64,000 nt of DNA from Escherichia coli (GCF_003334305.1 NZ_QOWS01000003.1); one strand, 5' to 3'. Positions 21,863 to 55,983 are shown, counted from the first letter of the stretch. Notes: generated by a model not told the origin, from the letters alone. Numbers and translations: made by a program.

Positions 21863-21872
21863 TTAATTGATT

Positions 21873-23800: not shown

Positions 23801-23811
23801 GAGATAAAAAA

Positions 23812-23831: not shown

Positions 23832-23855
23832 TTCGTTTTCATTACTGTGTTTTGA

Positions 23856-37435: not shown

Positions 37436-37974
37436 ATCAACACCTCATAGTGAATTCTGTCCAAAACAATCATGTTCAGGTTTTTGATAAATAAAAAGCG
37501 ACTAAATACCACCTCAACATCAGGAGCGGCGATTACTTGGGTACCCGTGGACGAAGTAAAACCCATACGGCATATGTCTTTCAGTTTTTGAGTATCAGGT
37601 ACACCTACTAAGCCTTGGCTCCAGGCACTGAGGACCAGGGTTTTGGGGCAATGATTCCAGCGCTGTGCTGCTTCCAGTAAGTTTTTTAATTTTTCTTCCA
37701 GCTTTTGCTGCCCCTTCGCTGAACCATCAAAGCGTTCAAATTCGATTAAACACACAGGCGATGCAGAAGATTTATGAAACCAGCCCGAGTCAGAGCGAAT
37801 ATCAGCACCAAATGTCCCTGGAGCCGGGCATTCCACTACCGCCATAAATGACTGTTCATGCCCGAATGTATTCCAAACGCTACAGCCCAGGCTGTGGACC
37901 AATACATCCTGGTCCAATAGCTTACCGCTTGCTAAAAGTGGAAATGTCTCATTTACCCAGGCAACTTCAGGCAT
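37432..37974 (-). CDS. Hypothetical protein (about 180 aa); a possible nuclease-like fold is speculative
   Basis: The ATG at 37974 is preceded by AAGGTG, which overlaps the HerA-like stop (TAAGGTGCCTATG). The track GTG start at 38031 is less likely. The only hint of a PD-(D/E)xK-type site is ADIRSD...CLIEFERFDG...K. No motif was confidently recognised. Confidence 0.55.
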   Translation of the reverse strand: MPEVAWVNETFPLLASGKLLDQDVLVHSLGCSVWNTFGHEQSFMAVVECPAPGTFGADIRSDSGWFHKSSASPVCLIEFERFDGSAKGQQKLEEKLKNLLEAAQRWNHCPKTLVLSAWSQGLVGVPDTQKLKDICRMGFTSSTGTQVIAAPDVEVVFSRFLFIKNLNMIVLDRIHYEVLM

Positions 37975-37981
37975 AGGCACC

Positions 37982-40814: not shown

Positions 40815-40816
40815 GC

Positions 40817-41665
40817 TTATAGCGTTCCTGTGTGTAGCTGCTCGCCAAGTAATGGGGCATAAGCCCAATATTGCGAGGCTTGTAGGCATGTTTTACCGGT
40901 AGCTGTTATGCCCGCGTCGTCGATAAAATCGTGCTGCCGCAACATCTCACCCCGCTTGACAATATCAAGGCTATTAACATCAAACATCAGCTTAACCGCA
41001 TTATGCTCAGACAACGCTTGTAAGTTCATGCCACCGCCAGCGTAGAGTAATAGCAATACAACTAGATCGTGCTTATCTGGCGTGTAGTCAGTTGATGGCG
41101 CTTTAGGTTCGATTATTCGTTCAGCAATGCCTGCATGGTCCACAAACCAATTCAACCAGCTCACCAGGAGCTCACTATGATCGAGTAAAGTCAGCGACCA
41201 CAAAGGTAACGTGGTAAAGGCTAATAGCCCACTGTTGCTGTGTTTTCGTATGTAGCGGGTATGCACTACATCACCGGCCTGGTGCTGGTAGCGATCTGCG
41301 CTGCCAGTAAAGCCAGCAATAGCCTGGTCTGTTTCACTGGCTAGCAAAGCGGTTAGCCCCGGTTCCTGCCCCCTCAAGCTCGCTGGTACTAACTGCCAAT
41401 CCAGTGGATAGGGCAATTGCGCTAATAAGGTAAATTGTTCTGCTTTCAGGTTTATTACCAAAGCGGCACAACCTGCCTGCATAGCCCAGTGATACAGGTG
41501 CTGCATAGTATTAGCGTCAGTCAACTCTTCTGCTTGCACTATTAACAAACCGCTGGCTGGCGGCGAGCTAATCCAATCCTTCATTAAGGGGGTAGCCCCC
41601 GCAACAGTTTGCAAAAAACGGCCTTTACGATTACTGGCCAGTGCCGCAGATAAATAACGACTCAT
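40817..41665 (-). CDS. Hypothetical protein (about 282 aa)
   Basis: The ATG at 41665 is preceded by a GAGGTGA Shine-Dalgarno sequence that overlaps the TAG of the 1428-aa gene. No recognisable motif. Confidence 0.55.
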   Translation of the reverse strand: MSRYLSAALASNRKGRFLQTVAGATPLMKDWISSPPASGLLIVQAEELTDANTMQHLYHWAMQAGCAALVINLKAEQFTLLAQLPYPLDWQLVPASLRGQEPGLTALLASETDQAIAGFTGSADRYQHQAGDVVHTRYIRKHSNSGLLAFTTLPLWSLTLLDHSELLVSWLNWFVDHAGIAERIIEPKAPSTDYTPDKHDLVVLLLLYAGGGMNLQALSEHNAVKLMFDVNSLDIVKRGEMLRQHDFIDDAGITATGKTCLQASQYWAYAPLLGEQLHTGTL

Positions 41666-41675
41666 CGCGTCACCT

Positions 41676-44600
41676 CTACAAACCAGTGGCAAAGGTAAGG
41701 CGCATTTTTACAATGCCTTTGTCTACAAGTCCTTTCTGTTGCTCAGGTGTTAACACGGGTTCCTGATTTTGGCTCAAAGCCTTATAAATCGGTTGCCAAT
41801 CCGCCAGTGTTAAGCCTGTATCATTTAATATTTGCTCACCTTGACTCTGCCATTTGGCCTGGGTGCTTTCACACACCTGTTGAAGTTCTCTGACACCCAA
41901 ATTGCTCACATCCTCCAGAGTCAACGCTGCTGGTTCCGCTTGCTTTTGAGAAGCCAATAGCGGTTTTAATAACGGCAGCCAGCTGTTTACCTGTGCGATG
42001 GAGTTGCGTCTTACTTGGTTTAGACGCTCTTCAATTTTAAGTAGCTGGCCTTGAATCGGTGTAAGTTGACCGCGTGCCGGTTTTAAAAGCTCTTCTGGTA
42101 AATCCCGTAACGATGAAAACTGCCCATTGCGCAAACTGTTTTGCATACTTTGACGCTTGCTCTCTGCATCACTGGGGAGATCGGCAATAGCATCTTCAAT
42201 GAGCTGTAATTTCATTACCAGTTTTGGTAGCTCTGCAATGTCATCGGCGAACTGATACTCAGCCGTGGCGCTACTAAGCCATTCTTGCAGTTGTTGTGCA
42301 CGTAGTTTTTGCTCTGTGAGGTTATTAACCAGCTTACTAAATCGTTCTTTGCAGTTGCGGTAGCTGGACAAAATATGCCCCTGAATCTCCGCTATCGGCA
42401 ACTGTTGATCATTGTGCAGGTTTAAACCCACTTCTTGCGCTAAGGCTGAAAGCTTGTCATGCGCTCTACCTAAATCGAGTTTACGCAGGTAATGCAGTAA
42501 GGTATCGCTATCTGCTTGCTGCTCTTTTCGGCCAGTGGCACTGCTGGTATCGTCTTTTAACGCTCCATCTAAAATATGACCTATGGTGCGCAGCGTGTTG
42601 GTGTACAGACGTTTCGGAAAATTCGTCAGCGGGGCACACTCTGTTTCAACATCTATGATTAAATCAACGAGTCGGTTGTTGATACGCTCAGCGCTGCACT
42701 CAACAAACTCGGCAAATAAACAGGCCTGTTCAATCCGTTGATAAAGCGAGGTCGTTTTGTCTTCTAAGCTGAGAATATGGGCATCTTTTAGCATAGGCCT
42801 GGAACTATTAAGCGGTTTAACCTTTGCTACCAGCTCCAGCACTTCAGCGCGTTTGTGGATAAGCCCTGCCAATACTTTCGTGTCGTTGGCCTCGACCATA
42901 TCAGCCAATTGTTCTTCTTGCTGTTTGAGCACGTTAAATAGCGATTGTGCTTTTTCCAGCTGCTCTTTAGCTTCCACGGTGACGAAACCCAGCTTATTTT
43001 TACCCAGTGGCGCGAACATTTCATTAATGCGTGCATAACCATACACGCGGCTCATGACTTCCACATTGGCTGCATAGCTGCCCATATCGTTACCACGGAA
43101 CCAGTTTTGCGCTTCTCTAATGGCATTTTCTAAGCGGGAGCGCGGGTAGTGCTCCCAAATTGCCTGTTTTTCTGTTGGATTGGTTAAAGTGAGTAAGTTC
43201 AGCTCTCCACACCACCACATCCAGTCATTAAACACGCCTTTGGCGGTAACACTCGTTTCAGCCACATAGGCGAAATAAAACTGTTGCTTAAAGCCTTCGA
43301 ATTGCCACTTGTGCTTTTTATTAGGGTGAGCAATACGGGCTAAAAATAATGGGATCTGCGCCTGGCTTCGCTGCACATTATTAAGTTCAGTAAATAGCCC
43401 GGCATGTTCATCGGCAGTGTAACCTTTGGCAATATAGCTGCCCGGCACCTTAAGTTTATCCAACAAGCTGCTCAGCTCATTCACTGGCACGCCGTGTTGC
43501 TGCTGTAAATCGAGAATGCCATTTAACTCAGGGTGAGCAATGGCCAGCTGATACCAGCCTTTAAACAACAGGTCTCGGTCATTCGGTGATAATTTACCAT
43601 CTACCTTTAACGGCCAGGCAATTAAACCGCGCTGCTGCAAACGCTGGCGCCACTTGTGAATGGCATCCGTGGCAAAGGTTGTCAGGGCATGCAGCTTGTT
43701 TTTGAATTTCGCGGTAAAGCTGTCGGCAGTTAAATTCACGCCGTGCAACTGACATGCTGCCAAACTTAAGCCAATACGCTCTAACTGGTCTGCTTCGCTT
43801 GGGTTGACATAATGCAGCAGTATCGCATCACGCAACTCATTTCTTTCATCCAGTCGGCTGTATTGCTCCATGAGATGTGCAGAAGCAGTTAACGCTAATA
43901 CTGGCGTGCGACCATTTTGGTGGCTGTGGTTTGCCGCAAAGGTGTGAAGATTGTTCAGCTCAATTAGGTTGCTGACCCAGGCAAACAAGGCTTTACCTTC
44001 TGGGTGAAGCTTAAATCCATCCAGGGTAAGTAAACCACCCTGGCGGCCACGGGGCTCGGTTAAAATGGCCAAAGGTGCATCGTCGCTGCCCGCTTTATTA
44101 CTCAGCAAGTTTTCATCATAGGTCCAGTTGTTATCAAGTAATCTCACAAAGCCCGTTACACGGGCTAATGCCTTGATGAGCGGCTTCTGGCTACTTTGTT
44201 TGCTAAGTTCACTCATTGCCTGTTCATGAGCGTCGCCCATGGCGGGATCTTTAAAAATCAGTGAGTTTTGCTGGGCACTGCGATAGCGCAAATCCAGGCG
44301 CAGTAACATCGCCACACTGGGGCCAATATGCGTTGCTTCGCTGGCGTCCAGTTCGGTAGTTTCACCCACTAGCTTGTGCCATAAGGCATCGGCAGCGAAT
44401 TCAATCGCTGGGTGGTCATACAGCAAGCTGAGTAAGTATTTAAACTCACCTTTTGACAGAGGTAGTAATACCGCGCCTTTATCGCCGCTTGCGGCTTGTT
44501 CTTTAATTGAAAAAGTACGCAGGTTATCCAGCAAAGTATCTAAGTTCAGCGCTTGATCTACTGCAGGGTAGTACCATTCATCTTTATCGCGGCGGAATTT

Positions 44601-45962
44601 GGCTTGCTCCAGGGCTTGTCGGCACTGTAGGCGGTCAATGCTCAGTTTGCGGTAATGAGCGGCTATGGGTTCCAGATCTTCGTTTTTCAGCGCCAGCAAT
44701 TCTGTGGCATAGCCCATTTCAGCTAAGCGCACGGGTAATTGGCCGTAGAGCAAACTACGACATTCGGTCAATAGTGCCTGGTCGCGAGTTTGAATGCCTT
44801 CTATCGCGCCTTTATCCAGCACATGCCTGGCTACGCGGCCAGAGCCTGCCAGCACAGCTTCAAATAAATCGCCCACATCCTTGATACTGCGGCCTGCTTG
44901 TTGGTATTGGCTCAGCACTGCATCCACATTAGCCATGACCACGTTAAACCAACCGAAGTTGGCACCACTCATGGCGTATGCAGCTTCCACTAAACCAGCA
45001 GGGTAATTAAAACCCAGCTTGCCGTCTTTTAAGAGGCTTGCCACATAGTCTGATACATCGGCAAAGGCATTATGCTCAAGTTCCACTAACTCAAAGCGGC
45101 GTGCGACCGATTGAATTTCGCGCAATTGCTGGCCAAGCAGTGGTGAACACAGCGCTACATAGCGCAACCATGGAAGTTTACGGCGAGGGTCTTCCTCTTT
45201 AATTGCTTTACCAATCAGGCGAATGGCCTGGCCATCGAGGCGTTTATTTTGTTCATCTTCCAGGCCAAAGGTGGCGGCTTCTGCAACGGTTTCCAGCTCA
45301 TCCAGCACCACCAACATATACTGCACGCCAAAGCTCTTTAATACTTTATAGGCGGCTTGCACCAAACTGACTACCAGCGTTTGGTCAGTATAGAGGTCTT
45401 CTTCGCTGTGGTTGGCGTTCAGCTGTAAGGCATCTGCTAACAGTTCAGATTTAAAGCCAAATGGCATTAAGCGTTCATAGGCTTGTTTGGCAATTTCACT
45501 TTGAATCGATCCATCAAAGGTTTGGGTGGCCAGTGGTAATAGCGCCTGATATAAACCAAAAGCAAACCAGTTATCCGAGTTTTGATAATCTGATGCCACT
45601 TGCGAGTAGCGAATGTAGAGCGCCAGGTATTTGTCTTGCGTGTCGCGATTAAACAGCTGCTTATCGTGCAGTTGGCCTTGTTCGTCGCGGACAAACCAGC
45701 CCCTTGAACAGTCGTTAATTTGTGCAACCAATTCATGGCCTAAACGTGATTTACCCCGACCCCATTCGGCTTCGACGGCAAACACATGGGCAAAGCGATC
45801 ATCGTCGTGATCCACCGTATGCAAAAAGGTTTGAAAGCGTTTAAAAAAGCGGCTCTGGCCCACTAACGGGTCGCGAGGTGGATAATCTGATACGCCCGTC
45901 GCCGCCCAGCGATGTTGTTTTGCCAGGCTATCAACCATCTGTTCGTTTAATTCAAAACTCAT
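41676..45962 (-). CDS. Giant (1428 aa) P-loop NTPase with long helical C-terminal region
   Basis: Walker A-like EAEWGRGKSRLGHE sits near residue 65 and Walker B-like YMLVVLDELE near residue 215. The remainder is helix-rich with no motif I can name. Its ATG overlaps the upstream TGA (ATGA). Confidence 0.7.
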   Translation of the reverse strand: MSFELNEQMVDSLAKQHRWAATGVSDYPPRDPLVGQSRFFKRFQTFLHTVDHDDDRFAHVFAVEAEWGRGKSRLGHELVAQINDCSRGWFVRDEQGQLHDKQLFNRDTQDKYLALYIRYSQVASDYQNSDNWFAFGLYQALLPLATQTFDGSIQSEIAKQAYERLMPFGFKSELLADALQLNANHSEEDLYTDQTLVVSLVQAAYKVLKSFGVQYMLVVLDELETVAEAATFGLEDEQNKRLDGQAIRLIGKAIKEEDPRRKLPWLRYVALCSPLLGQQLREIQSVARRFELVELEHNAFADVSDYVASLLKDGKLGFNYPAGLVEAAYAMSGANFGWFNVVMANVDAVLSQYQQAGRSIKDVGDLFEAVLAGSGRVARHVLDKGAIEGIQTRDQALLTECRSLLYGQLPVRLAEMGYATELLALKNEDLEPIAAHYRKLSIDRLQCRQALEQAKFRRDKDEWYYPAVDQALNLDTLLDNLRTFSIKEQAASGDKGAVLLPLSKGEFKYLLSLLYDHPAIEFAADALWHKLVGETTELDASEATHIGPSVAMLLRLDLRYRSAQQNSLIFKDPAMGDAHEQAMSELSKQSSQKPLIKALARVTGFVRLLDNNWTYDENLLSNKAGSDDAPLAILTEPRGRQGGLLTLDGFKLHPEGKALFAWVSNLIELNNLHTFAANHSHQNGRTPVLALTASAHLMEQYSRLDERNELRDAILLHYVNPSEADQLERIGLSLAACQLHGVNLTADSFTAKFKNKLHALTTFATDAIHKWRQRLQQRGLIAWPLKVDGKLSPNDRDLLFKGWYQLAIAHPELNGILDLQQQHGVPVNELSSLLDKLKVPGSYIAKGYTADEHAGLFTELNNVQRSQAQIPLFLARIAHPNKKHKWQFEGFKQQFYFAYVAETSVTAKGVFNDWMWWCGELNLLTLTNPTEKQAIWEHYPRSRLENAIREAQNWFRGNDMGSYAANVEVMSRVYGYARINEMFAPLGKNKLGFVTVEAKEQLEKAQSLFNVLKQQEEQLADMVEANDTKVLAGLIHKRAEVLELVAKVKPLNSSRPMLKDAHILSLEDKTTSLYQRIEQACLFAEFVECSAERINNRLVDLIIDVETECAPLTNFPKRLYTNTLRTIGHILDGALKDDTSSATGRKEQQADSDTLLHYLRKLDLGRAHDKLSALAQEVGLNLHNDQQLPIAEIQGHILSSYRNCKERFSKLVNNLTEQKLRAQQLQEWLSSATAEYQFADDIAELPKLVMKLQLIEDAIADLPSDAESKRQSMQNSLRNGQFSSLRDLPEELLKPARGQLTPIQGQLLKIEERLNQVRRNSIAQVNSWLPLLKPLLASQKQAEPAALTLEDVSNLGVRELQQVCESTQAKWQSQGEQILNDTGLTLADWQPIYKALSQNQEPVLTPEQQKGLVDKGIVKMRLTFATGL

Positions 45963-47260
45963 AACGACGATCCTTGAAGGTTTATTCTATTGGCGGCGCG
46001 TTTTTTATTGGCATAGCAGTTTTGCGCCAGTTGCTTAATGGTCCGTTGTAACGTTTGGCTTTTGTAGCCAAATAGTGGTGCTAACGGCAGGCTATAACAG
46101 GCATCGCTGAAGCTTGTATGAATTCGATATTGGCCGGCCTCTCCACGACCCGCCTCGGTAAATTGCCAGATTTTTTTTGCCAACAATTCGGCAATGAATG
46201 AGCTCAGGACGCGGTTTAGGCGGTTGATGCTTTCCGTGTTCGCATCGAGTGCCGGGTAGAGGGGTATATTGAGCTCACCGAGCAGAAGCACAAGAAACTC
46301 GGCCAAACTACCCAGACTCACCTCATCACCTTCAATGCCCTGTACCGCCACATTTATTTGACCGGGGGCAAAGGCATTTTGCCCGGCAGGTAAGGTGAGC
46401 AACAAACCGCCACGTTGCTCGGCAGCCCAGGCATCTTGCACAAAGATAATTAGACTGAGTAAAAATAACCAGGGCTGTTGGGCGAATAGCTCGGTAAGCG
46501 GCATGTTGTCATGACCCGAGCGGGACACCAATAACCAATCGGCATTGGGTTTAAGGTTATGTTCATCAAGCAAGGTATTAGGGAGTGCTAACAACCGCCC
46601 ACTACACCAGTTATTTGTCAGTTGTTTTGCGGTGACATCCACCGCTTGTATAGGTGCCGGTGGTTCATTTTGTTCGCTCACGGTAAACAAGGTATAGCTG
46701 GTGCGCAAAATACGACATAGCGCGGGAATGGCAGCATTGTCGTTTAGGCTATGACCGAGCAAATCGCGTTCGGTTTGTGCCAGAGGGCCGGCAATGATTT
46801 GCGGCGTGGTGGCAGTGCTTTCCAGCTGGGCTAAGACCCATTCACTGGCATTGCCCAGTTGCTGAATGAGTTTAACCAATACCATTGTGTCACTCATCGT
46901 GCCTGCTTCCTGGCAGCGAGCGGCGGCTAAATTGATCCAATGTTGGCGAACATCTGGGTTTAAGCCCAACAACGCTAATTGCCATTCACCTGACTGGCTT
47001 AAATCGTTAAAGGCATCAAGCAATGGTGCAGTGAGGCTAAAGGCGCTAACGATATCCGTTTCAGCGTCGTTCTTTTTCGGCTGTATTATTGGTTGTAGCA
47101 GTGACCTAAGGGCAGGCACAGCCGCCAATAACAATGCTGCTTTGTTGGCGTTCAAACCACCTTGTTGCCAAAGCTGCAGGCAGAGGTTAAGTGCCGCTTC
47201 GCTATTTACGGGGTCGTTATATTGCCTGGTTGTACTGCTGTCCGTGCCCCTTGTCTCCAT
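45959..47260 (-). CDS. Hypothetical protein (433 aa)
   Basis: The ORF starts 2 nt after the S-subunit TAA and ends in an ATGA overlap with the giant NTPase gene. No recognisable motif. Confidence 0.6.
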   Translation of the reverse strand: METRGTDSSTTRQYNDPVNSEAALNLCLQLWQQGGLNANKAALLLAAVPALRSLLQPIIQPKKNDAETDIVSAFSLTAPLLDAFNDLSQSGEWQLALLGLNPDVRQHWINLAAARCQEAGTMSDTMVLVKLIQQLGNASEWVLAQLESTATTPQIIAGPLAQTERDLLGHSLNDNAAIPALCRILRTSYTLFTVSEQNEPPAPIQAVDVTAKQLTNNWCSGRLLALPNTLLDEHNLKPNADWLLVSRSGHDNMPLTELFAQQPWLFLLSLIIFVQDAWAAEQRGGLLLTLPAGQNAFAPGQINVAVQGIEGDEVSLGSLAEFLVLLLGELNIPLYPALDANTESINRLNRVLSSFIAELLAKKIWQFTEAGRGEAGQYRIHTSFSDACYSLPLAPLFGYKSQTLQRTIKQLAQNCYANKKRAANRINLQGSSL

Positions 47261-47262
47261 CT

Positions 47263-48738
47263 TTACTCTTCAGCCTCCGCTTGCGCCGCCTCTTCCAGCA
47301 AACTGTATAACTCATCCACATCGCTAAATAGCGGTGTGGCACCTTCAATGGCATAACCCTCAGCGCTCAGTTTGCTTAAAATCGCTTGATCAAAGCTGCT
47401 GTCGCCATCTTCCAGGGCTTGTTGGGCCTGGATTAGTTGTTGCTCAGTCAGTTGGCCTTCGATTAATGACTCAACTAGAGTTTTGGCAGATGCTGTTAAC
47501 TTTTTTGCATATGCTGCCGTAGTAACGGCTAGTCTCAGCTTACTTCCTATTTCTCTATTCTTCGCTATGTCAATCGGAATCAGAATATTTAACAGGTTTT
47601 CTGAAGTCACTTTTGGTACAACGCTGCCAGTAGTCACACCTTTCCAACACGGAAAGTGTTTATCCAGGAACCTACAAATAGACTCAATATCATATTCATC
47701 TTTTACCTTTAAAACCCAAACATGGTTGTTTGCCCAAAACTTTCCATCAGCTACATTTGCACAGCCAATAGAGCCATCTTGCGCAATAATCAGATATTTA
47801 CCGTTGAAATTGAATTCGGTATGAGTATCTATTGGACCTGATGCGCCATAGTAAAAATATGGTCCGGGTACTCTGTCTTCCGATTTAATAGGGTCGCCAC
47901 ATTTGCATTTACTAATGAAATTAGATAGTTTTGATGAATTCCTAAAGGTCATTTGACTATCGGCCGCACGTGCAAACTCAGGAGCTAAAGACACTGCTGA
48001 TAATACCTGTTGTTTCATTCTTCTAGGTTTCAATGTTAATGAATCAACAAGGTTGAAGTGAAATAAATCTTTAATTTTTCTATCAGCCATTCCTTCAAGT
48101 CGTTTCGCCCAAGCGCGTAACTGCTCGGCTTGGCGAACTTTATCCCCGATGTATTTTTGGGCTAGAGGTAAAACTTTAGGAACCGCTAGCGAGCGGACAC
48201 TTGGGAAGTCAATTGCAGGGCGAGTTGCGCCATATGCTTCCTTCCAGATCGCTACTTGTCCGGTTTTGCTATTCAAATATGCCACCAAGAAATAGGCGTC
48301 AACTTTTTTGGGATCGGGCTTGAATCTGACTGAGTGCTGACTAATGTTGGCCGGTAGATGTTTAGCTGACACAACAGCCGATTTACCAAATTTTGCACCA
48401 GTAATCGTAAGTAAAACGTCGCCATCCACTAATCGGCTGCGCTTTAATTTTTCATCATCTTCATCGTTAATAAAAACAGCTTCTTCAGCTTGCAAGAACA
48501 TTTCTTCAACTTCAGAAGTGCGATAAAACTTAACACGGCCTTTTTCTAAATAATTTGCTCCTAAAGGTGTTGCGCCACTAGCCACCCCGCGCTTTGAATC
48601 AATTACCGCTTCTAGGGGCAAAGCACCTAGGTTGTCTTTTATCTTATTAATTTGTCTTTCAAATCGCGGTTGATAGTGCCAAGGATCAATCCGCCTTTCA
48701 GACAATTGTTCGGGTGTTCTTTTAAAAATAGTTGCCAT
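47263..48738 (-). CDS. Type I-like restriction-modification specificity (HsdS-like) subunit with two target-recognition domains
   Basis: About 491 aa. TRD1 carries RIDPWHY..., GDVLLTITGAKFGKSAVV and NISQHSVRF. A conserved helical spacer (QKYIGDKVRQAEQLRAWAKRLE) follows, then a second TRD (YYGASGPI...IIAQDGSIG...NNHVWVLK) and a C-terminal helix plus acidic tail. The ATG overlaps the methyltransferase TGA (TGATG). Confidence 0.8.
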   Translation of the reverse strand: MATIFKRTPEQLSERRIDPWHYQPRFERQINKIKDNLGALPLEAVIDSKRGVASGATPLGANYLEKGRVKFYRTSEVEEMFLQAEEAVFINDEDDEKLKRSRLVDGDVLLTITGAKFGKSAVVSAKHLPANISQHSVRFKPDPKKVDAYFLVAYLNSKTGQVAIWKEAYGATRPAIDFPSVRSLAVPKVLPLAQKYIGDKVRQAEQLRAWAKRLEGMADRKIKDLFHFNLVDSLTLKPRRMKQQVLSAVSLAPEFARAADSQMTFRNSSKLSNFISKCKCGDPIKSEDRVPGPYFYYGASGPIDTHTEFNFNGKYLIIAQDGSIGCANVADGKFWANNHVWVLKVKDEYDIESICRFLDKHFPCWKGVTTGSVVPKVTSENLLNILIPIDIAKNREIGSKLRLAVTTAAYAKKLTASAKTLVESLIEGQLTEQQLIQAQQALEDGDSSFDQAILSKLSAEGYAIEGATPLFSDVDELYSLLEEAAQAEAEE

Positions 48739-50885
48739 CACTCACCCCGCTTATAAGCCGATACAATCTTATCCAGATCGTTTGCGACACCGGCGTTATA
48801 GTCTTCGATATTGTTTTTCACCACATAACCCAATGTTTCAGCCACTGCCATAAACACGTCGGTTTGTGGCTCGGGCAAAAATTGCTCTGGCTGGTTGGGG
48901 TTAGCATGGCGTTTTTGTAAATACAAAATCGAGGTTTTGGCCCCCGTACCGGAGAGTTTAAAGCAGTCGCTCGGCAATGAAATTACTGCTTTTACAATAG
49001 CTTTACCGCCAACAAACTCGCCGGTTTTTTCGTCTTTTTTCCCCATAATGTACTCACGGACATAACGGTCGCCGGAGTTACATAAAATACCATCAGGCAG
49101 CACTATTAACAGGCGGCCACCGGGTTTAAGCAGTTGCAGGCAGCGGTCGATAAAAAGTACTGCTGGGTCAATAGTGGCACCTACCGGTTGCCAGTTGCCC
49201 TTGCTATCGGGCTTGCTGCCCAGCGCGAGCCCTGCGGTTGTAGGCTGCAGGCTGTAAAACGGCTTTTTATCAGTCCCGCCCGTTCTGCGCAAATCGGTAC
49301 GGTAGCCCGCCCATTTAGGCTCGCCGTTTTCATCCAGCTCTAAATCACCGATATCCTGCCACTTCATTTTCACGTGGTCATACCAGGCGTTGTAGCTATC
49401 AACGACTTTTTTGGTCGGACGAAAACCACCGAGCACTTGCTCCATATTGGCTTCGTAATTGGCTTTTGAGTTTTGACCATTTTTGCCTTTATCAAATTTA
49501 GGCGTACCGAACGGCGGGTTGGTGCAAATCAGGTCAAAGCTATTCGGCTTCAGAGCGTTAGTAGTGAGTGAGTTGTCGGTATAAAAAATCTGCGCTTTGG
49601 GGGCACCTTGCAATGCCATATTCACGCGGGCCAGCATTACCATGCGTGGTGCAGCATCGGCACCGGTAAATGCACAGTCGCGTAATTTTTGTTTCAATGA
49701 TTCTTTTTTATCGTCGGCCAGCACCAGCTTAAAATCGATCCATTTATCAATCTGGCTTAACGCCACCGAGCCAAAACCAAAGGAGCCACAGGTGGGGTCG
49801 CAGAAACGAAAATCGCCATTGGCTAAGCGCGATCGCATTTCATCGTCATCGTCGATGTCGTGCATAGCAATTTCTAGCATGGCCTGTTTTACTGGGTTTG
49901 GTGTTAAATAAACGCCAAGGCCACCTTTGGATTCAAAGTTAGCGCGTAGGAATACATCAAACACTCTGCCTAGTAAATCTCCTGACACATCAGCCAACGT
50001 GCCGTGTTCTTTCGCGATTTTACCGTCGTTGGTTTTTACCGGACCCAGGTTTTGTATTGCTTCCAGCAAATCCTGATAGTTTTTCGCAACAGACAGTCGC
50101 AGGTGTGTTTCTTTACTAAAGATGGGGTTACGTGAGCCATCATCTGAGATCACAACGTAGTTTTCGTGGCTTTTAAATTCCTCAAAGGCGGCTTTGATTT
50201 GGGCAACGGCTTTATCGCCGTGGCTCTCCACATATTGCCAATCAAAGACATCACGAAAACGCAGGGTATTTCCCTCATCATCTTTAAAGGTAAGGTCTTC
50301 ATCGTGATGCAGGCGGAAAGTTTCTAAAAACAGAAGCTTAGCTACTTCTTCAATAATGTCGTTCTTGTCGTTTACCTTGTCTTTGGTAACGCGATAAACA
50401 TTTTCATGGAAGGCATCAAATCGCTGCATTAAGCGTGTATAAACACGCATCGACCAGCGAAAGGTTGGATCACGCTCCATGCGATCAAAGCTACGTAATT
50501 CTTCCAGACCAGGCAGGGTATCTGCACCGTGGGTACCGTCAGATCCATCGGCACCGAACAAGGCCAAAATACGTTGGTTCAAGCCATCGTCCACAACGGC
50601 ATATACTGGCCAGTCACCTTCGATATCACTTAACAGCTGATAGGCTAAATCATCAAACTTTGCAGTGTCAGCGGCGTATTCCCAATGGCCTTCTGTCAGC
50701 GCAATCAACATGACTGGTGGCGTTAAGTTGCCTTCAACCAGGCCTTGAATGAGACCAGCCTTGGCGAATTCATGCTCGGGTAATTCGACCAATGGCTGAG
50801 TAAACTCGGAGTGCTGTTTGACCAGTTTATTGAACAGTGCTTCTAGCTGCTGTTGCGGGTCTTGTTTTTTTGCTTCTTTTGCCAT
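48738..50885 (-). CDS. N6-adenine DNA methyltransferase (gamma class, HsdM-like) with N-terminal extension of about 330 aa
   Basis: 715 aa with motif I FCDPTCGSFGFG, motif IV LICTNPPFG, and an HsdM-like segment DLLGRVFDVFLR...GVYLTPNPV upstream. Confidence 0.85.
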   Translation of the reverse strand: MAKEAKKQDPQQQLEALFNKLVKQHSEFTQPLVELPEHEFAKAGLIQGLVEGNLTPPVMLIALTEGHWEYAADTAKFDDLAYQLLSDIEGDWPVYAVVDDGLNQRILALFGADGSDGTHGADTLPGLEELRSFDRMERDPTFRWSMRVYTRLMQRFDAFHENVYRVTKDKVNDKNDIIEEVAKLLFLETFRLHHDEDLTFKDDEGNTLRFRDVFDWQYVESHGDKAVAQIKAAFEEFKSHENYVVISDDGSRNPIFSKETHLRLSVAKNYQDLLEAIQNLGPVKTNDGKIAKEHGTLADVSGDLLGRVFDVFLRANFESKGGLGVYLTPNPVKQAMLEIAMHDIDDDDEMRSRLANGDFRFCDPTCGSFGFGSVALSQIDKWIDFKLVLADDKKESLKQKLRDCAFTGADAAPRMVMLARVNMALQGAPKAQIFYTDNSLTTNALKPNSFDLICTNPPFGTPKFDKGKNGQNSKANYEANMEQVLGGFRPTKKVVDSYNAWYDHVKMKWQDIGDLELDENGEPKWAGYRTDLRRTGGTDKKPFYSLQPTTAGLALGSKPDSKGNWQPVGATIDPAVLFIDRCLQLLKPGGRLLIVLPDGILCNSGDRYVREYIMGKKDEKTGEFVGGKAIVKAVISLPSDCFKLSGTGAKTSILYLQKRHANPNQPEQFLPEPQTDVFMAVAETLGYVVKNNIEDYNAGVANDLDKIVSAYKRGE

Positions 50886-50935
50886 GATGTTTTCTAAAAT
50901 CCTTTAATACAGCCAATGGTTACTACAAATGCCGG

Positions 50936-51322
50936 CTAATTTATCAGTACCAGCAAGGGGCCTTTAATCTCTATCTGCGCGTGCTTCTGTGCCAGTTTGC
51001 GTATCTGCTGTTCACTGGTCGTAATACCAGCAGGGAGCTTTTTCAGTACTTGTGCAAGGGGCATGCGCCCACCAGCTTGATGCAACAATGATACCAAATG
51101 TGCCGCGATATCAGGTATAACCTGGTACGTTGCCGTTGTGGGCCCTTTTAGATGATTACTTTGAGGCAATGAGGCAAGCCATAGCGAAACTTGAGACTGG
51201 CTAAAGCCAAGTGTTTGCCAGAGGGTTTGGTTCTCATTAAATACAACGGCGGCGCTTCTGGGAGTTGCTGTTTGCTGAGTTATTAGTTGTTCCAGGCTTT
51301 GTCGCTGGTATTCATGGGTCAT
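50936..51322 (-). CDS. Hypothetical 128-aa protein translationally coupled to McrC
   Basis: Its ATG overlaps the McrC TGA (ATGA). No motif was recognised. It ends 50 nt upstream of the methyltransferase ATG. Confidence 0.55.
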   Translation of the reverse strand: MTHEYQRQSLEQLITQQTATPRSAAVVFNENQTLWQTLGFSQSQVSLWLASLPQSNHLKGPTTATYQVIPDIAAHLVSLLHQAGGRMPLAQVLKKLPAGITTSEQQIRKLAQKHAQIEIKGPLLVLIN

Positions 51323-52662
51323 CTCATGCCTCCACTATAGGATACTGAAGCAGCCATCCGATCCAGTTTGGGGCTCATTGTACAGGACACGTCATTCGGC
51401 CACATCATCCTCTCACCGCGTTTTGCCATTATCCGGTATGGCACAACCCATAATTTTAAAGTCTCCGAGAAAGCAAAATGCTGCGCTATAGGTTGGCTAA
51501 AGTCATCATGCGCAGGGTAAATCAGATACATTTCGCCATTCCCACCAAGATATTTTTGTCCGTAGGCAAACATTTGATAGAAGTCAGCTTGTGCCAGTCC
51601 ATAGAGTGATTTTGTCTGCTGGCTGCTATTCACCAGCTTCCATTTTGTATCCATCACCATTTCGGTTTGAACTGGTTTGTGTGATTGAATCAGCAAGTCG
51701 GGGCGAAGCTTAAAGCAATCTTTAAGTCCATGCTTTACCAAAGAATAAGTTGCTGCTTGAGGTAAAACTTTGAGGTGAGGTGGTAACTCGTCGGGTAGGG
51801 TCTGTGCCACAAAGGATTCAAATACCGCTTCCATAGGGAACAAAAGTGATATCGCTTTGGTGTTTCCCTGCAAAGCACTCGGGCTCATTCCCCTCAGGAT
51901 CAATTGCGCCCATGCCATTGGCTCGTTGTAATGAGCCATACCACGCTCGAGGCGTAAGTTGTTTATATCACGTTCAATATCCCGGCTAAGTGGAATACCG
52001 TCAAACGCAAAACGCAGTTCGTAAAGCCAGCGTTGATTATCTGATGACAGCTGCAGACTAAGAAGCTTATCTAGTGCGGAGTGTAAGAGCCGATTGGCTG
52101 CACAATCAGGCATGTAGTCATCATAATCGACACAAAACTTATGGCGATTCACCGCGTTATGTCGCAGCTGTGCAGAAAGCATCAGCTTGCCCTTCATAAA
52201 AGCCAGATTACCTTGCTTGCTCACATAGTCGGAGCGTAAACCCTGTTTAAGCAATTGGCTGACGCTATGCAAAAACTGGTTAATAAAAATCTCAAGCAAA
52301 GGCATACGCTGAGCCTGAAGAGTGGCTTGCTGGGTTTGAATATGTCGGAACCCAGGCAGATGGCTTAGCATCGTCAGCAATGTTTGACGTGCATTAGCCG
52401 CTGTGAGGTTTTTACCAACCTTGGGCAGTATCTCAAGCTGGAAACCGTGAGGTGTTGAAAGCATCCCTGCGTAGTTTTGAACCTGAAGCAATTTGAAGCC
52501 TGAGCGAGAGGTGAGTTTGAGGAACTGGCTCCCTTGATTACTTGCCAGGCTAAGCGCTTCTAAATAATTAAAGACCTGTGGAGGCACCGGTTTTGCGCCA
52601 ACTGAAGCCGCTTTTCCACTCCCCAAGAGGTCATATTCAAAAACGGAGATAACTTCACCCAT
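51319..52662 (-). CDS. McrC-like endonuclease subunit
   Basis: 447 aa immediately downstream of, and overlapping, the McrB-like gene. The PD-(D/E)xK-type motif RPDLLI...EMVMDTKWK resembles the McrC catalytic core. Confidence 0.75.
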   Translation of the reverse strand: MGEVISVFEYDLLGSGKAASVGAKPVPPQVFNYLEALSLASNQGSQFLKLTSRSGFKLLQVQNYAGMLSTPHGFQLEILPKVGKNLTAANARQTLLTMLSHLPGFRHIQTQQATLQAQRMPLLEIFINQFLHSVSQLLKQGLRSDYVSKQGNLAFMKGKLMLSAQLRHNAVNRHKFCVDYDDYMPDCAANRLLHSALDKLLSLQLSSDNQRWLYELRFAFDGIPLSRDIERDINNLRLERGMAHYNEPMAWAQLILRGMSPSALQGNTKAISLLFPMEAVFESFVAQTLPDELPPHLKVLPQAATYSLVKHGLKDCFKLRPDLLIQSHKPVQTEMVMDTKWKLVNSSQQTKSLYGLAQADFYQMFAYGQKYLGGNGEMYLIYPAHDDFSQPIAQHFAFSETLKLWVVPYRIMAKRGERMMWPNDVSCTMSPKLDRMAASVSYSGGMR

Positions 52663-54730
52663 GATTTACTGCCTGCTCATCAAGGGGAGTCTGTTGGGGC
52701 TGATAAATTGAACGATAAGCCTGTGGAATATTCCAGATCTCTTGATCGAAATCTTTGAGCTCATAAGCTGTTGATTGCTGATCATGGCGTCGTAAACCAT
52801 GGTTGTTACCAAAAAGCGTATCGAGATCGTCGGTTTTCTCAATCACGAATTGCAGGTTGTCGTCTTGCTTTTGATTGTCTGCCAGCACCAACCGGATCTT
52901 GTTCCAGTCATCGAAAAAGTATTCCTGTAAAAGCGGAATGATCTTTTTCTGGAATGCGATCTTCAATTGTTTAAACGCAGCTTCTTCATCACCGGCATCG
53001 AGTGCATTTTTTACCGGCATAAAGAACGCATGCCCCAGCGTATGTTCACGATCGTAAAGAGCCTCGATGCGGCTATTGAGTTTCTCTAACAACGACTCGA
53101 GCTCTATGCCTTTCACCTTAGCTTCACTCAGTAAAGAGAGATCAGGCATCATTTCGACAAAGTCAAAGCGACGGCGCAAAGCCGTGTCCATCAGAGCTAA
53201 AGAACGGTCCGCTGTATTCATGGCTCCGATGATATCGACATTGCCGGGTACGCTGAAGTGATCACCGCTATAAGCCAGTTGCAGGCTCATCGCATTGGGC
53301 ATGCCTGCACGCTTGTCTACTTCAATGAGTGAGATTAGTTCACCAAAGATCTTGGATATGTTACCGCGATTGATCTCATCAATGAAAATGGCGTAGCGAT
53401 GTCCTGGATCGGCATTCGCACGTTGGCAAAGGCGCATAAAGATACCCGGCTCAATGGGATAAGAGATATTGCCACTCTCGTCAGAGCGAGCGCGTATACC
53501 TTCAATAAATTCTTCATAGCCGTAAGATTGGTGGAACGTAACCACCGCAAAACGCTGGATGGCTTCGGCAGATTTAGGGCCACGTTTAAGTTCGGCGTAG
53601 AGCTCTACCAAATCCTCCACTTGCTCGAGCTGTGAATCAACTAGAAACCATTCGCTGTTATCTGTTTTGTTAAATACGGCAGGCTCACGCCGATTCTTAT
53701 AATCAACGGTTAACGACTCGGGAACTGTATAGGATTGCAAAGCTGCCCAGGCAGTATTCGATAGATTGCCATTACGACCGTTTAATAATGCCTTACGTTG
53801 AAACCACATATGTTCAATAATTTGGCGAACTTTCGCTCGTTTCCCAAGATCGAGCAGCACCAGCGTTATAACCTGCATCCAGTTCAACGATTCAAGGCGA
53901 GAATCCAGCCAGGCATCACGATCAGCGGGAACAGCATGAGAAGTGTACTCTTTCATTTTTTGCTGCAACCTGAAGGTCTTGCCAGTGCCAGGGGGGCCAA
54001 AGAAGATCACGTTAGTTGGTGAATGTAGGATGATCTTGTTCTCGATGGGCTCACTGCGGGTTATGGATGTAGTGCTAGCTACTTTCTCCTGCTTTTGTTC
54101 ATTATCGCGTTCACGGAGCAATTCATAGAGATGCCAGATGGCCATATTCACATAATAAGGATCTGTATCAGGAGATTGGGCGTGTATGGCTTGTTTCAAT
54201 TCATAGTTTTTCTGTAACCAATTTCCGGTCAGTACCAAACCGAGATGGAAGTGCTGATTTAAGAATTCTGCTGCTTTATTAAAAGCATTCTCATCCACAG
54301 TACTGGTGTAGTTTTCTGGCGAGAACGCGGCAAAGACGCGATTTCTCAAACTCCAATACATACGCTTGAGAAGTCCGTTTTCTTTAGCTTGTTGAAGTGC
54401 ATTGCCAACATATTGGTAAGTTTCTTCATCCGGCTGTTGCCGAATTCGTTCAGTTAGTTCTCTAAGCAGTGGCAGGCTTTGCTGATATTCTGCTAAGGAT
54501 GGAACGCCCTGGCGAATACTTGCAATGCCGTTGTCACGCTCATACCAAAGCTGTTTGACCAGACCATCTGTTGCAGGCTCAGCAAAAGTTGAGGTTTGCT
54601 GTAGCAAAGTCGTAAATGCACGGTATCGCTGATACCATCTGGAAGCTGTGTAATTTTTATCTTTCGCCAGGGCATCAATCAATTCACTAATCGTTAGCCT
54701 ACCTGCTTCGACACTATCTACAAGAGTCAT
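52655..54730 (-). CDS. McrB-like AAA+ GTPase subunit with non-K-12 N-terminal domain
   Basis: 691 aa with Walker A FFGPPGTGKT, the McrB signature FIDEINRGNISKIFGELISLIE, and IIGAMNTADRSLALMDTALRRRFDF. The first roughly 230 aa are unrelated to what I recall of the EcoKMcrB DNA-binding domain. Confidence 0.85.
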   Translation of the reverse strand: MTLVDSVEAGRLTISELIDALAKDKNYTASRWYQRYRAFTTLLQQTSTFAEPATDGLVKQLWYERDNGIASIRQGVPSLAEYQQSLPLLRELTERIRQQPDEETYQYVGNALQQAKENGLLKRMYWSLRNRVFAAFSPENYTSTVDENAFNKAAEFLNQHFHLGLVLTGNWLQKNYELKQAIHAQSPDTDPYYVNMAIWHLYELLRERDNEQKQEKVASTTSITRSEPIENKIILHSPTNVIFFGPPGTGKTFRLQQKMKEYTSHAVPADRDAWLDSRLESLNWMQVITLVLLDLGKRAKVRQIIEHMWFQRKALLNGRNGNLSNTAWAALQSYTVPESLTVDYKNRREPAVFNKTDNSEWFLVDSQLEQVEDLVELYAELKRGPKSAEAIQRFAVVTFHQSYGYEEFIEGIRARSDESGNISYPIEPGIFMRLCQRANADPGHRYAIFIDEINRGNISKIFGELISLIEVDKRAGMPNAMSLQLAYSGDHFSVPGNVDIIGAMNTADRSLALMDTALRRRFDFVEMMPDLSLLSEAKVKGIELESLLEKLNSRIEALYDREHTLGHAFFMPVKNALDAGDEEAAFKQLKIAFQKKIIPLLQEYFFDDWNKIRLVLADNQKQDDNLQFVIEKTDDLDTLFGNNHGLRRHDQQSTAYELKDFDQEIWNIPQAYRSIYQPQQTPLDEQAVNHG

Positions 54731-54899
54731 CGTGACTTTTCCTCTGTTGTGACATTACTTATTTTTTAATTAATATGAGGTATTCTAACTATATTGAGTT
54801 AATCGTTGTGACAAGTGCCTGTTATATATACAACTATCTGTTAACTCAGCTCTAATTTAAATACAATGTAAGGTTGTAGGGTGAATGCTGTTATCAACC

Positions 54900-55772: not shown

Positions 55773-55983
55773 TGATATCCCTGGCAGTGAAATAATTGCG
55801 ATCATGCTCGCAAATTTTCGGCTGTTCAAGCCTGCAAGTGAAGATATATTACTTTGATCTCATTTGTTTTTTTGCTGCCTGTGTACCCTAATTGCCATGC
55901 GATGTTGCACCGACGCAAACCACCTTTTACGCCGGAGGAGTTAAAAGCGTTGATGGATGCGAATAAATCAAATTAATGAACGC

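What the first reader, a model, noticed from the sequence alone, without database searches (positions are those of the whole stretch)
50936..54730. McrBC-type module with a divergent N-terminal reader domain and a coupled third gene
The AAA+ core of the 691-aa protein is unmistakably McrB-like (DEINRGNISKIFGE, NTADRSLALMDTALRRRF), and the next gene carries a McrC-like D...DTKWK nuclease motif. The roughly 230-aa N-terminal region differs from what I recall of the EcoKMcrB 5mC-binding domain, so target specificity is unknown. A 128-aa ORF is fused to the McrC stop by an ATGA overlap, making a three-gene unit rather than the classical pair. It ends only 50 nt from the methyltransferase gene with no visible terminator. 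The type IV module and the nine-gene operon may therefore be co-transcribed, giving 12 genes from 54730 to 35966.
Basis: partly seen in the sequence, partly recalled or inferred. Interest (0 to 1): 0.55.

Follow-up and report, generated by a model that had tools for sequence, protein, structure and literature searches.

The report
McrBC cassette joined to MADS-type operon
The two large genes are a real but ordinary McrBC-type restriction enzyme of an uncharacterised subfamily, and the small "third gene" is not part of it: it is the first conserved gene of the neighbouring methylation-based defence operon, which McrBC has been spliced in front of.

Summary

- **McrBC:** it is a genuine two-gene cassette. 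About 700 of 5426 complete E. coli genomes, including ST131, carry it at 91-95% nucleotide identity with a 428-aa McrC, without P128 and without the methyltransferase operon.
- **P128:** in every homologue locus with downstream DNA, it sits 50-90 nt upstream of the same MTase-S-...-HerA-kinase (MADS-family) operon. In Vibrio, Pseudoalteromonas, Acinetobacter, Shewanella, Marinomonas and others no McrBC is adjacent. A small mad1-like HTH gene or an Mrr gene precedes it instead.
- **ATGA overlap:** it comes from McrC losing its stop at a recombination joint and reading 19 codons into P128's start region. Two related loci keep a 160-190-nt spacer.
- **McrB N-terminus:** the ~215 aa are unrelated to the EcoKMcrB reader. 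They form a conserved module of a wide McrB subfamily, which also has a 122-aa insertion inside the AAA+ domain. Neither part could be assigned a fold.

Co-transcription of all 12 genes is plausible but untested.

The parts
52655..54730 (-). mcrB: 691-aa McrB-family AAA+ GTPase (RefSeq WP_000177023.1, 'McrB family protein')
   Evidence: It is an ORF. Pfam AAA_5 matches at 8.7e-15. The NCBIfam McrB equivalog scores 148 bits, below its 637-bit cutoff, and aligns only over residues 389-612. The best PDB matches are 6UT3 and 6HZ4. Walker A is at residue 245, Walker B (DEINR) at 451, NxxD (NTAD) at 505 and RRRF at 519.
54086..54730 (-). McrB residues 1-215: conserved N-terminal domain of unknown fold, unrelated to the EcoKMcrB DUF3578/MrcB_N reader. 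Residues 216-232 form a low-complexity linker.
   Evidence: 153 cluster representatives match at E<=1e-3, and all ten tested are McrB-family proteins. The domain ends 15-38 aa before Walker A in 79 of 83 proteins, and 59 of 84 carry an extra N-terminal extension. W62, R131, W171 and N195 are invariant. There is no match in PDB or Pfam, and none to EcoKMcrB. The AF2 model failed with pLDDT 46.
53552..53917 (-). McrB residues 272-393: 122-aa insertion inside the AAA+ domain, between the Walker A helix and strand beta-2
   Evidence: Query residues 271->394 map to chain residues 56->57 of TgMcrB. In EcoKMcrB the distance from Walker A to the next aligned block is 13 aa, against 136 aa here. Six distant subfamily members share the insertion at 24-45% identity, while others carry an insertion further downstream. 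There is no Pfam, PDB or Mrr_N match.
51319..52662 (-). mcrC: 447-aa McrC-family protein (DUF2357 plus PD-(D/E)xK nuclease). The catalytic motif RPD...MDTKWK lies at residues 320-342 (nt 51637-51705).
   Evidence: Pfam McrBC matches at 1.9e-96 over profile positions 1-318 of 318. It aligns with TgMcrC 6UT5_G at 5.5e-18 with the catalytic motif aligned. The NCBIfam EcoKMcrC equivalog scores 95 bits, below its 338-bit cutoff.
51322..51378 (-). 19-codon C-terminal tail of McrC (…CTMSPKLDRMAASVSYSGGMR): read-through of junction DNA, ending in the TGA of the ATGA overlap
   Evidence: Stand-alone orthologues are 428 aa and stop where the tail begins (ST131 ATA TAA against window ACA ATG). Homology to them ends at about 51381. 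In AR_0061 an IS21 changes the tail again.
50936..51322 (-). P128: 128-aa two-domain protein with an N-terminal 4-helix part, a disordered linker and a C-terminal winged helix. It is the first conserved gene of the downstream MADS-family operon, not a McrBC component.
50886..50935 (-). 50-nt gap between P128 and the methyltransferase gene, with no terminator or promoter match. The sequence just before the MTase start (AAGAAAACATCATGGC) is conserved across genera.
35966..50885 (-). Nine-gene remainder of the MADS-family operon that P128 heads: HsdM-like MTase, HsdS, 433-aa, 1428-aa, ~283-aa, ~385-aa, HerA ATPase, ~181-aa and Ser/Thr kinase genes
   Evidence: Pfam matches N6_Mtase, Methylase_S, DUF87/HerA and Pkinase. 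PADLOC matches mad2 (2e-20), mad5 (6e-16), mad8 (7e-26) and mad6 (1.2e-45, the best hit for the kinase). RefSeq gene spacing is 10 nt or less.
54731..54899 (-). AT-rich 169-nt region upstream of mcrB with a good Shine-Dalgarno sequence (AGAGGAAAAG) and two GTCACAAC repeats. It is the presumed promoter region of the block.
   Evidence: The sequence is shown. The consensus scan found no sigma-70 site on this strand. The region is not conserved among the composite loci.

Best explanation
The region contains two separate things that have been joined.

**1. mcrB-mcrC is an autonomous Type IV (modification-dependent) restriction cassette of a distinct McrB subfamily.**
- McrB has five parts:
  - a conserved ~215-aa N-domain of unknown fold;
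  - a short linker;
  - an NxxD-type AAA+ GTPase interrupted by a 122-aa insertion after the Walker A helix;
  - a lid;
  - a 60-aa tail.
- McrC has a DUF2357 domain plus an intact PD-(D/E)xK nuclease.
- By analogy with EcoKMcrBC and TgMcrBC (inferred, not shown), McrB hexamers bind some modified DNA. McrC stimulates GTP hydrolysis and cuts when translocating complexes stall.
- The modification recognised is unknown. The recognising element is the N-domain or the insertion, or both.

**2. The 128-aa gene (P128) is the first conserved gene of the downstream MADS-family operon.**
- It lies in the position between mad1 and mad2.
- It encodes a small winged-helix protein that most likely binds DNA as a regulator or accessory subunit of that system (inferred from fold and position).

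**How the two were joined**
- In Enterobacterales the McrBC cassette sits where other taxa have the small mad1-like HTH gene.
- In the Escherichia/Klebsiella/Pantoea/Erwinia/Ewingella version McrC lost its stop at the joint. It reads 19 codons through junction DNA to a TGA embedded in P128's start, which creates the ATGA overlap.
- The operon's own head gene and upstream region are gone, and no gap among the 12 genes exceeds 50 nt. The whole array is therefore probably transcribed from the mcrB promoter (inferred, untested).
For: **McrBC identity:**

**McrBC without P128**
- This McrBC family is present in 1015 of 5426 E. coli genomes, but P128 in only 281.
- In ST131 (next to an Eco31I-like R-M system) and in strain 2452 it is a plain pair with a 428-aa McrC.

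**P128 without McrBC, always followed by MTase-S-~430-1428-~282**
- Vibrio (three loci), Pseudoalteromonas (three), Acinetobacter and contig L013 have a small HTH gene directly upstream.
- Shewanella (two species) and Marinomonas have Mrr upstream.
- Rheinheimera, Hahellaceae and L027 have unrelated neighbours.
- The Vibrio 60-aa HTH gene hits PADLOC mad1 over its full length (1.6e-11). The window kinase hits mad6 (1.2e-45), the MTase mad2, the S subunit mad5 and HerA mad8.

**Junction anatomy**
- Homology to the stand-alone mcrC ends exactly at its stop codon.
- Homology to the HTH-P128 junctions of L013 and L023 starts at GGAGGCATGAGATGA.
- Rosenbergiella and MAG L026 have McrC (own stop), then 160-190 nt, then P128.

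**Block conservation:** McrB through the operon is conserved across Escherichia, Klebsiella, Ewingella, Pantoea and Erwinia, while the DNA upstream of mcrB is unrelated.

**P128 fold:**

**Packing and absence of a terminator:**
Against: - No experiment or transcript data were available, so co-transcription, McrBC activity and the role of P128 are all inferred.
- A Type IV enzyme (McrBC or Mrr) lies directly upstream of P128 in 5 of about 13 distinct contexts. This could mean the Type IV gene is a functional part of the system and not merely a neighbour.
- The composite block is conserved across several genera, which is also compatible with selection for linkage.
- P128's wHTH half is far more conserved than expected for a regulator with a co-evolving operator. 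It may be a structural subunit.
Confidence: 0.75

Rival explanations
1. One reading: McrB, McrC and the 128-aa protein (P128) form a three-gene Type IV unit. P128 is translationally coupled to McrC and serves McrBC, for example as a specificity or regulatory subunit.
For: The ATGA overlap is real, and a strong GGAGG Shine-Dalgarno sequence lies inside the mcrC tail. The arrangement is conserved in Escherichia, Klebsiella, Pantoea, Erwinia and Ewingella.
Against: About 700 E. coli genomes have the same McrBC at 91-95% identity without P128. P128 is found without adjacent McrBC in at least nine lineages, always with the MTase operon. Rosenbergiella and L026 have the same order but a 160-190-nt spacer and a normal 428-aa McrC. 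The overlap arises from loss of the McrC stop.
Confidence: 0.05
2. Integrated composite system: the 5' end of this MADS-family operon is a docking site for Type IV restriction modules (McrBC or Mrr). These are co-expressed with the methylation-based system and act with it. They may cover phages whose modified DNA escapes the methylation-based arm, and P128 may link or co-regulate the two.
For: A Type IV gene lies directly upstream on the same strand in five context classes. Three are McrBC junction types (the ATGA-fused type, Rosenbergiella and L026). Two are Mrr arrangements: Shewanella with a 9-nt gap, and Marinomonas with Mrr between the mad1-like HTH gene and P128. Shewanella also carries a second McrBC 3.4 kb upstream. 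The MADS preprint notes Type IV R-M and DUF2357 proteins in P. aeruginosa MADS-like islands. The CoCoNuT census reports an ancestral McrB-methyltransferase association. The 12-gene block is conserved across genera.
Against: Defence islands cluster Type IV enzymes by default, and the window has a third one (a PT-DNA endonuclease) just upstream. No enrichment test against a background was done. Five context classes have only the small HTH gene and three have neither, so the Type IV gene is dispensable to the operon. McrBC keeps its own upstream region in Pantoea and Erwinia, as in stand-alone loci.
Confidence: 0.2
3. The McrBC here is a decaying or inactive passenger. Its 447-aa McrC is a fusion artefact, the N-domain lacks a reader, and the cassette no longer restricts.
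For: The McrC tail is an accidental read-through. The McrB lacks the extra N-terminal domains that 70% of subfamily members carry. IS disruptions occur in some strains, such as Nissle and AR_0061.
Against: All catalytic motifs are intact in both proteins. The ORFs are full length and 100% identical across many unrelated strains, and 82-91% conserved at the protein level across genera without frameshifts. 24 of 84 subfamily representatives share the same minimal architecture.
Confidence: 0.08

Closest known systems
EcoKMcrBC (E. coli K-12 mcrB/mcrC, Type IV 5mC/5hmC-dependent restriction; PDB 6HZ4, 7VSR)
   Same: Both are two overlapping genes. McrB is an AAA+ GTPase with Walker A, Walker B (DEINR), the NxxD signature and RRRF. 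It is 40% identical over residues 389-608. McrC has a PD-(D/E)xK nuclease.
   Different: The N-terminal DUF3578/MrcB_N reader is absent and is replaced by an unrelated ~215-aa domain. A 122-aa insertion follows Walker A. There is a 60-aa C-terminal tail. McrC is 447 aa against 348 aa. The NCBIfam equivalog cutoffs are not reached for either protein. Specificity is unknown.
Thermococcus gammatolerans McrBC (PDB 6UT3-6UT8)
   Same: It is the best solved-structure match for both proteins: McrB at 5.7e-55 and McrC at 5.5e-18 over residues 60-411.
   Different: TgMcrB has a YTH-like N-terminal reader, and its extra segment lies at a different place in the AAA+ domain (chain residues 101-165). The window protein's insertion is between chain residues 56 and 57.
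ST131 'McrBC' EC958_0011/0012 and orthologues in about 700 complete E. coli genomes
   Same: It is the same subfamily at 91-95% nucleotide identity, with the same N-domain and insertion. The ST131 methylome paper notes it lies upstream of an Eco31I-like R-M system (PMC4659465).
   Different: It is a stand-alone pair with a 428-aa McrC, no P128 and no MADS-family operon. The paper assumed K-12-like 5mC specificity from 'sequence conservation'. The N-terminal comparison here does not support that assumption.
MADS and 'MADS-like' defence systems of P. aeruginosa (Maestri et al. preprint, doi 10.1101/2023.03.30.534895)
   Same: The operon that P128 heads has homologues of mad2 (MTase), mad5 (S), mad6 (kinase) and mad8 (HerA). 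In other taxa it also has a mad1-like HTH gene directly before P128. The order of the MTase, S, HerA-like and kinase genes matches positions 3, 4, 9 and 11 of the 11-gene 'MADS-like' description. The preprint names Escherichia as the genus with the most MADS hits.
   Different: P128 has no counterpart among the PADLOC mad1-8 models. The sequences of the P. aeruginosa madl genes were not available for comparison. In the window the mad1-type head gene is replaced by McrBC.
Controller (C) proteins and other small HTH genes at the head of R-M and BREX operons (e.g. BrxR)
   Same: These are small DNA-binding proteins encoded first in a methylation-based defence operon and tightly abutting the next gene. 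This is a functional analogy for P128.
   Different: P128 is a two-domain winged-helix protein, not an XRE or WYL type. Most operons also carry a separate mad1-like HTH gene. No operator was identified, and a regulatory role is untested.

Membership tests
McrB family (GTP-specific AAA+ motor of McrBC Type IV restriction) | AAA+ core with Walker A, Walker B (DExNR) and the McrB signature NxxD motif | tested here: met
   GPPGTGKT is at residue 245, DEINRG at 451 and MNTAD at 505. The core aligns with TgMcrB and EcoKMcrB.
McrB family (GTP-specific AAA+ motor of McrBC Type IV restriction) | Adjacent, co-oriented McrC partner gene | tested here: met
   mcrC overlaps mcrB by 8 nt. The pair is conserved together in all loci examined.
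McrB family (GTP-specific AAA+ motor of McrBC Type IV restriction) | GTP hydrolysis stimulated by McrC, and modification-dependent cleavage | not testable with these tools
   This needs biochemistry or phage and plasmid challenge.
EcoKMcrB equivalog (5mC-specific McrB with DUF3578/MrcB_N reader) | N-terminal MrcB_N (PF12102) DNA-binding domain, and full-length match above the NCBIfam NF008457 cutoff | tested here: not met
   There is no PF12102 hit. NF008457 scores 148 bits against a 637-bit cutoff and matches only residues 389-612. hhalign of the N-domain profile against EcoKMcrB 1-180 gives probability 0.2%.
McrC family | DUF2357/McrBC domain plus a PD-(D/E)xK catalytic motif | tested here: met
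   PF10117 matches over its full length at 1.9e-96. RPD...DTK aligns with kPD...DaK of TgMcrC.
CoCoNuT-type McrBC | NxD (not NxxD) GTPase signature and coiled-coil insertions | tested here: not met
   The signature is NTAD, that is NxxD. No CoCoNuT-associated domains were found in Pfam.
   It is absent from about 700 E. coli loci with the same McrBC. It is present without adjacent McrBC in at least nine lineages.
MADS-family operon (membership of P128) | Constant position at the head of an operon with mad2, mad5, mad6 and mad8 homologues, between the mad1-like HTH gene and the MTase | tested here: met
   All loci with downstream DNA show P128, then 50-90 nt, then MTase-S-~430-1428-~282.
MADS-family operon (membership of P128) | P128 is homologous to a named mad or madl protein | tested here: inconclusive
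   P128 gives no PADLOC mad1-8 hit.
Winged-helix DNA-binding proteins (P128 C-terminal half) | H-H-H plus beta-hairpin wing fold | tested here: met

The most novel reading that the evidence does not exclude
The 5' end of this MADS-family operon, between the mad1-like HTH gene and P128, is a recurrent docking site where Type IV restriction modules are recruited. McrBC was recruited in Enterobacterales with two junction types, and Mrr in Shewanella and Marinomonas. The result is single-transcript composite systems that pair a modification-dependent nuclease with a methylation-protected defence. The conserved winged-helix protein P128 would act as the shared regulator or adaptor.
Probability: 0.2. 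Interest if true: 0.55.

Novelty: new member of a known kind. Interest (0 to 1): 0.3.

Why it matters
The practical value is mostly corrective.
- **Operon boundaries:** the work redraws them in a common E. coli leuX defence island. P128 belongs to the MADS-family system, and McrBC is a separable cassette.
- **Specificity of a common enzyme:** the McrBC found in about 19% of complete E. coli genomes, including ST131, cannot be assumed to have K-12 (5mC) specificity. Its N-terminal domain and an internal 122-aa insertion are uncharacterised. This affects predictions about which modified DNAs, phages and cloning vectors these strains restrict.
- **A domain family worth solving:** the ~215-aa N-domain family has 153 clusters and is often combined with further N-terminal domains or with EVE/MrcB_N readers. 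It is a defined target for structure determination.
- **A possible design principle:** if the recurrent placement of Type IV genes at the head of MADS-family operons proves to be more than island clustering, it would show how complementary restriction logics are wired together.

Tried and rejected
2. **Profile HMMs against PDB sequences.** Neither the N-domain (A3) nor the insertion (A4) gave a credible hit.
3. **Per-member Pfam scans of A3 and A4 at E<=5.** No family recurred.
4. **Insertion as an Mrr_N-type winged helix.** This was my reading of its sequence pattern. hhalign against the Shewanella Mrr N-domain gave probability 0.7%. It remains an unsupported impression.
5. **McrC tail as a remnant of the displaced HTH gene.** Only the last ~14 nt (P128's SD plus ATGA) are shared with the HTH-P128 junctions. 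The other ~47 nt are unique, so I rejected this in favour of read-through of junction DNA.
6. **A WYL or HTH regulator relocated upstream of mcrB in the composite loci.** None was found, and the upstream genes are unrelated (DUF1173, IS, metabolic genes).
7. **Consensus promoter and terminator scans.** I scanned the window junctions and the Rosenbergiella and L026 spacers. Nothing rose above the shuffled expectation, which is uninformative either way.
8. **P128 on plasmids.** No tblastn match.
9. **Homologous-protein searches with McrB.** The N-terminus alone returned only fragments, and the full-length query returned only proteins at >=88% identity. They did not give a deep alignment.
10. **Literature on this McrBC variant or on 'madl2'.** I found nothing beyond the MADS preprint, the CoCoNuT census and the ST131 methylome paper.

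Full report
**Setting.** The window is E. coli chromosome. The finding lies in the island integrated at tRNA-Leu(CAA) (leuX, 34214-34298) with an integrase beside it, bounded on the other side by nanM/nanC/fim. This is the leuX 'hotspot 37' defence island described in the EcoSal review (PMC12707154). The GC content of the island is about 45-49%, against 52-55% in the flanks.

**Observation.** All the ORFs exist as described: mcrB-like 52655-54730(-) 691 aa, mcrC-like 51319-52662(-) 447 aa, and a 128-aa ORF (called P128 here) at 50936-51322(-).
- The quoted motifs are at McrB residues 451 and 505. Walker A is at residue 245.
- McrB's AAA+ core matches T. gammatolerans McrB (6UT3, 5.7e-55) and EcoKMcrB (40% identity over 389-608).
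- McrC gives a full-length Pfam McrBC hit (1.9e-96). Its RPD...DTK motif aligns with the catalytic PD...DxK of TgMcrC.
- mcrB and mcrC overlap by 8 nt. The mcrC stop and the P128 start share ATGA, and a GGAGG Shine-Dalgarno sequence lies 6 nt upstream.
- The 50-nt gap to the methyltransferase gene has no terminator-like or promoter-like site and no stable hairpin.

**What the 128-aa gene belongs to.** P128 has 88 homologue clusters, all in Gammaproteobacteria, down to 52% identity. I examined 20-odd loci from public assemblies.
- In every locus with downstream DNA, the P128 homologue is followed 50-90 nt later by the same operon. That operon is an HsdM-like MTase (72-97% identical to the window's), an HsdS, a ~430-aa protein, a 1428-aa protein (84-98% identical) and a ~282-aa protein.
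- The upstream neighbour varies:

| Upstream neighbour of P128 | Taxa or loci | Gap to P128 |
|---|---|---|
| 58-64-aa HTH_17 gene | Vibrio (3 loci), Pseudoalteromonas (2) | 5-23 nt |
| 73-82-aa Cro/C1 HTH_26 gene | Pseudoalteromonas fenneropenaei, Acinetobacter, contig L013 | -4 to 14 nt |
| Mrr | two Shewanella species | 9 nt |
| HTH_17 then Mrr | Marinomonas | 434 nt |
| unrelated genes | Rheinheimera, Hahellaceae (Tn7-like), L027 | 57-272 nt |
| McrBC | Enterobacterales and one MAG | ATGA overlap, or 160-190 nt |

- The Vibrio HTH_17 gene hits the PADLOC mad1 model over its full length (1.6e-11).
- The window's kinase hits mad6 best (1.2e-45). The MTase hits mad2, the S subunit mad5 and HerA mad8.
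- P128 is thus an internal, constant gene of a MADS-family operon, lying between the mad1-type head gene and the methyltransferase.
- The positions of the MTase, S, HerA-like and kinase genes fit positions 3, 4, 9 and 11 of the 11-gene 'MADS-like' system sketched in the MADS preprint's supplementary notes. I could not compare sequences.

**McrBC without P128.** The same McrBC family is present in 1015 of 5426 complete E. coli genomes, but P128 in only 281.
- In about 700 genomes, including ST131 O25b:H4, the pair is 91-95% identical at the nucleotide level, and the match stops at window ~51381.
- There McrC is 428 aa and nothing like P128 or the operon follows. In ST131 the neighbour is an Eco31I-like R-M system, as the ST131 methylome paper described for EC958_0011/0012.

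**Anatomy of the junction.**
- Stand-alone McrC ends ...RGERMMWVKDVSSI*. The window protein continues ...WPNDVSCTMSPKLDRMAASVSYSGGMR*.
- Homology to stand-alone mcrC ends exactly at the position of its stop codon (ST131 ATA TAA against window ACA ATG).
- Homology to the HTH_26-P128 junctions of L013 and L023 begins at GGAGGCATGAGATGA, which is P128's own SD and start. The ~47 nt between are unique.
- In L013 the upstream HTH gene also ends ...SMR* with the same ATGA.
- Rosenbergiella and MAG L026 have the same McrB-McrC-P128-MTase order. There McrC is 428 aa with its own stop, and a 160-190-nt spacer follows.
- The ATGA overlap is therefore a by-product of one particular joint and not a conserved coupling device. 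That joint is shared by Escherichia, Klebsiella, Pantoea, Erwinia and Ewingella.

**The McrB protein.**
- The N-terminal 232 residues have no Pfam, NCBIfam or PDB match. They do not align with EcoKMcrB.
- A HMMER scan of 1.84 billion cluster representatives shows that residues ~10-215 are a conserved domain. 153 clusters match at E<=1e-3, and all ten tested are McrB-family proteins.
- In 79 of 83 near-full-length representatives the domain ends 15-38 residues before Walker A.
- 59 of 84 carry an additional 90-500-aa N-terminal extension in front of it.
- In four, another ~280 aa lie between the domain and Walker A, including an EVE domain in P0253 and a weak MrcB_N match in P0282.
- The domain thus coexists with classical modified-base readers.
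- The window protein has the minimal architecture, which it shares with 24 of the 84 representatives.
- A second unrecognised feature is a 122-aa insertion (residues 272-393) between the Walker A helix and the next strand. Six distant members share it at 24-45% identity. Others carry an insertion further downstream.
- The CoCoNuT census already reported that McrB GTPase domains frequently contain insertions 'likely encoding specificity domains', and that association with methyltransferases is ancestral (PMC11090510).

**Mechanism and transcription.**
- McrBC most likely works as other McrBC enzymes do, against an unknown DNA modification. This is inferred from intact motifs and homology.
- P128 most likely is a DNA-binding regulator or accessory subunit of the MADS-family system. 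This is inferred from its fold and position.
- In the window the mad1-type gene and whatever promoter preceded it are gone.
- McrB marks the 5' edge of the block that is conserved across genera. The DNA upstream of it is unrelated, and no regulator gene is there.
- RefSeq gene spacing across the 12 genes never exceeds 50 nt.
No transcript data or convincing promoter or terminator predictions were obtainable.

**Residual novelty.** A Type IV enzyme (McrBC or Mrr) abuts P128 on the same strand in 5 of about 13 context classes. In Marinomonas, Mrr sits between the mad1-like gene and P128. This could be ordinary defence-island clustering, since the window also has a phosphorothioate-DNA endonuclease just upstream. 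It could instead be recurrent recruitment of Type IV modules into the operon. I give the second reading about 0.2.

**Verdict.**
McrBC with an unknown specificity domain is supported, the three-gene unit is not, and co-transcription is plausible but untested.
- It is a new member of a known kind: an uncharacterised but very common McrB subfamily, joined to a MADS-family operon.

Noticed in passing
window 54900-55829 (-): A phosphorothioated-DNA-binding restriction endonuclease (NCBIfam NF045808, 437 bits; HNH) lies 169 nt upstream of mcrB. It is one more modification-dependent nuclease in the island besides McrBC. It is linked to McrBC only in E. coli, not in the other genera.
   Followed up: partly
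window 34214-35764: tRNA-Leu(CAA) (leuX) followed by a tyrosine integrase marks the island boundary. The whole 35966-55829 block is the cargo of the leuX 'hotspot 37' island.
   Followed up: partly
window 47263-48741 (HsdS) compared with L003-L027: The specificity subunit is only about 30% identical between loci whose MTase is about 90% identical and whose 1428-aa protein is about 85% identical. In some loci (Ewingella) only one half matches at 87%. This suggests target-recognition-domain swapping within this operon family.
   Followed up: no
L002 (E. coli strain 41), L022 (AR_0061), H65-H70: There are natural deletion variants of the island. Strain 41 lacks MTase through the ~283-aa gene but keeps McrBC, P128 and HerA-kinase. 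AR_0061 has an IS21 directly after mcrC, with P128 and the operon gone. Other strains retain only part of P128 fused to the integrase side.
   Followed up: partly
L010, L011, L009, L020, L021: about 170 nt upstream of mcrB: The stand-alone and some composite McrBC cassettes share a conserved upstream region. It contains a perfect palindrome, ATGTACTGTACAT, and a CCAGACTAGCTGCCTGG hairpin, which may be an operator or promoter. The window and Ewingella have a different upstream sequence, and the window's contains two GTCACAAC repeats.
   Followed up: no
L028/L029 1238-2173 and L020 12454-12708: A family-2 glycosyltransferase gene lies about 420 nt upstream of mcrB in Klebsiella. A remnant of one lies upstream of the stand-alone ST131 mcrB. 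This may be a former passenger of the cassette.
   Followed up: no
L004 1271-6629 (Shewanella xiamenensis): A WYL regulator, a 228-aa protein and a second, more distant McrBC lie 3.4 kb upstream of the Mrr-P128-MTase operon. This McrB is 734 aa and carries Pfam DUF8426, listed between the AAA and AAA_5 hits, so possibly an insertion.
   Followed up: no
window 18001-24000: A low-GC stretch (0.37-0.47, against about 0.52 in the surrounding sequence) lies well outside the finding. It is presumably another horizontally acquired segment.
   Followed up: no
literature: PMC4659465: The ST131 methylome paper treats EC958_0011/0012 as equivalent to K-12 McrBC (R-mC specificity, 'syntenic location'). 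The orthologous proteins here lack the K-12 reader domain and fall far below the NCBIfam equivalog cutoffs, so that assumption looks unsafe.
   Followed up: partly
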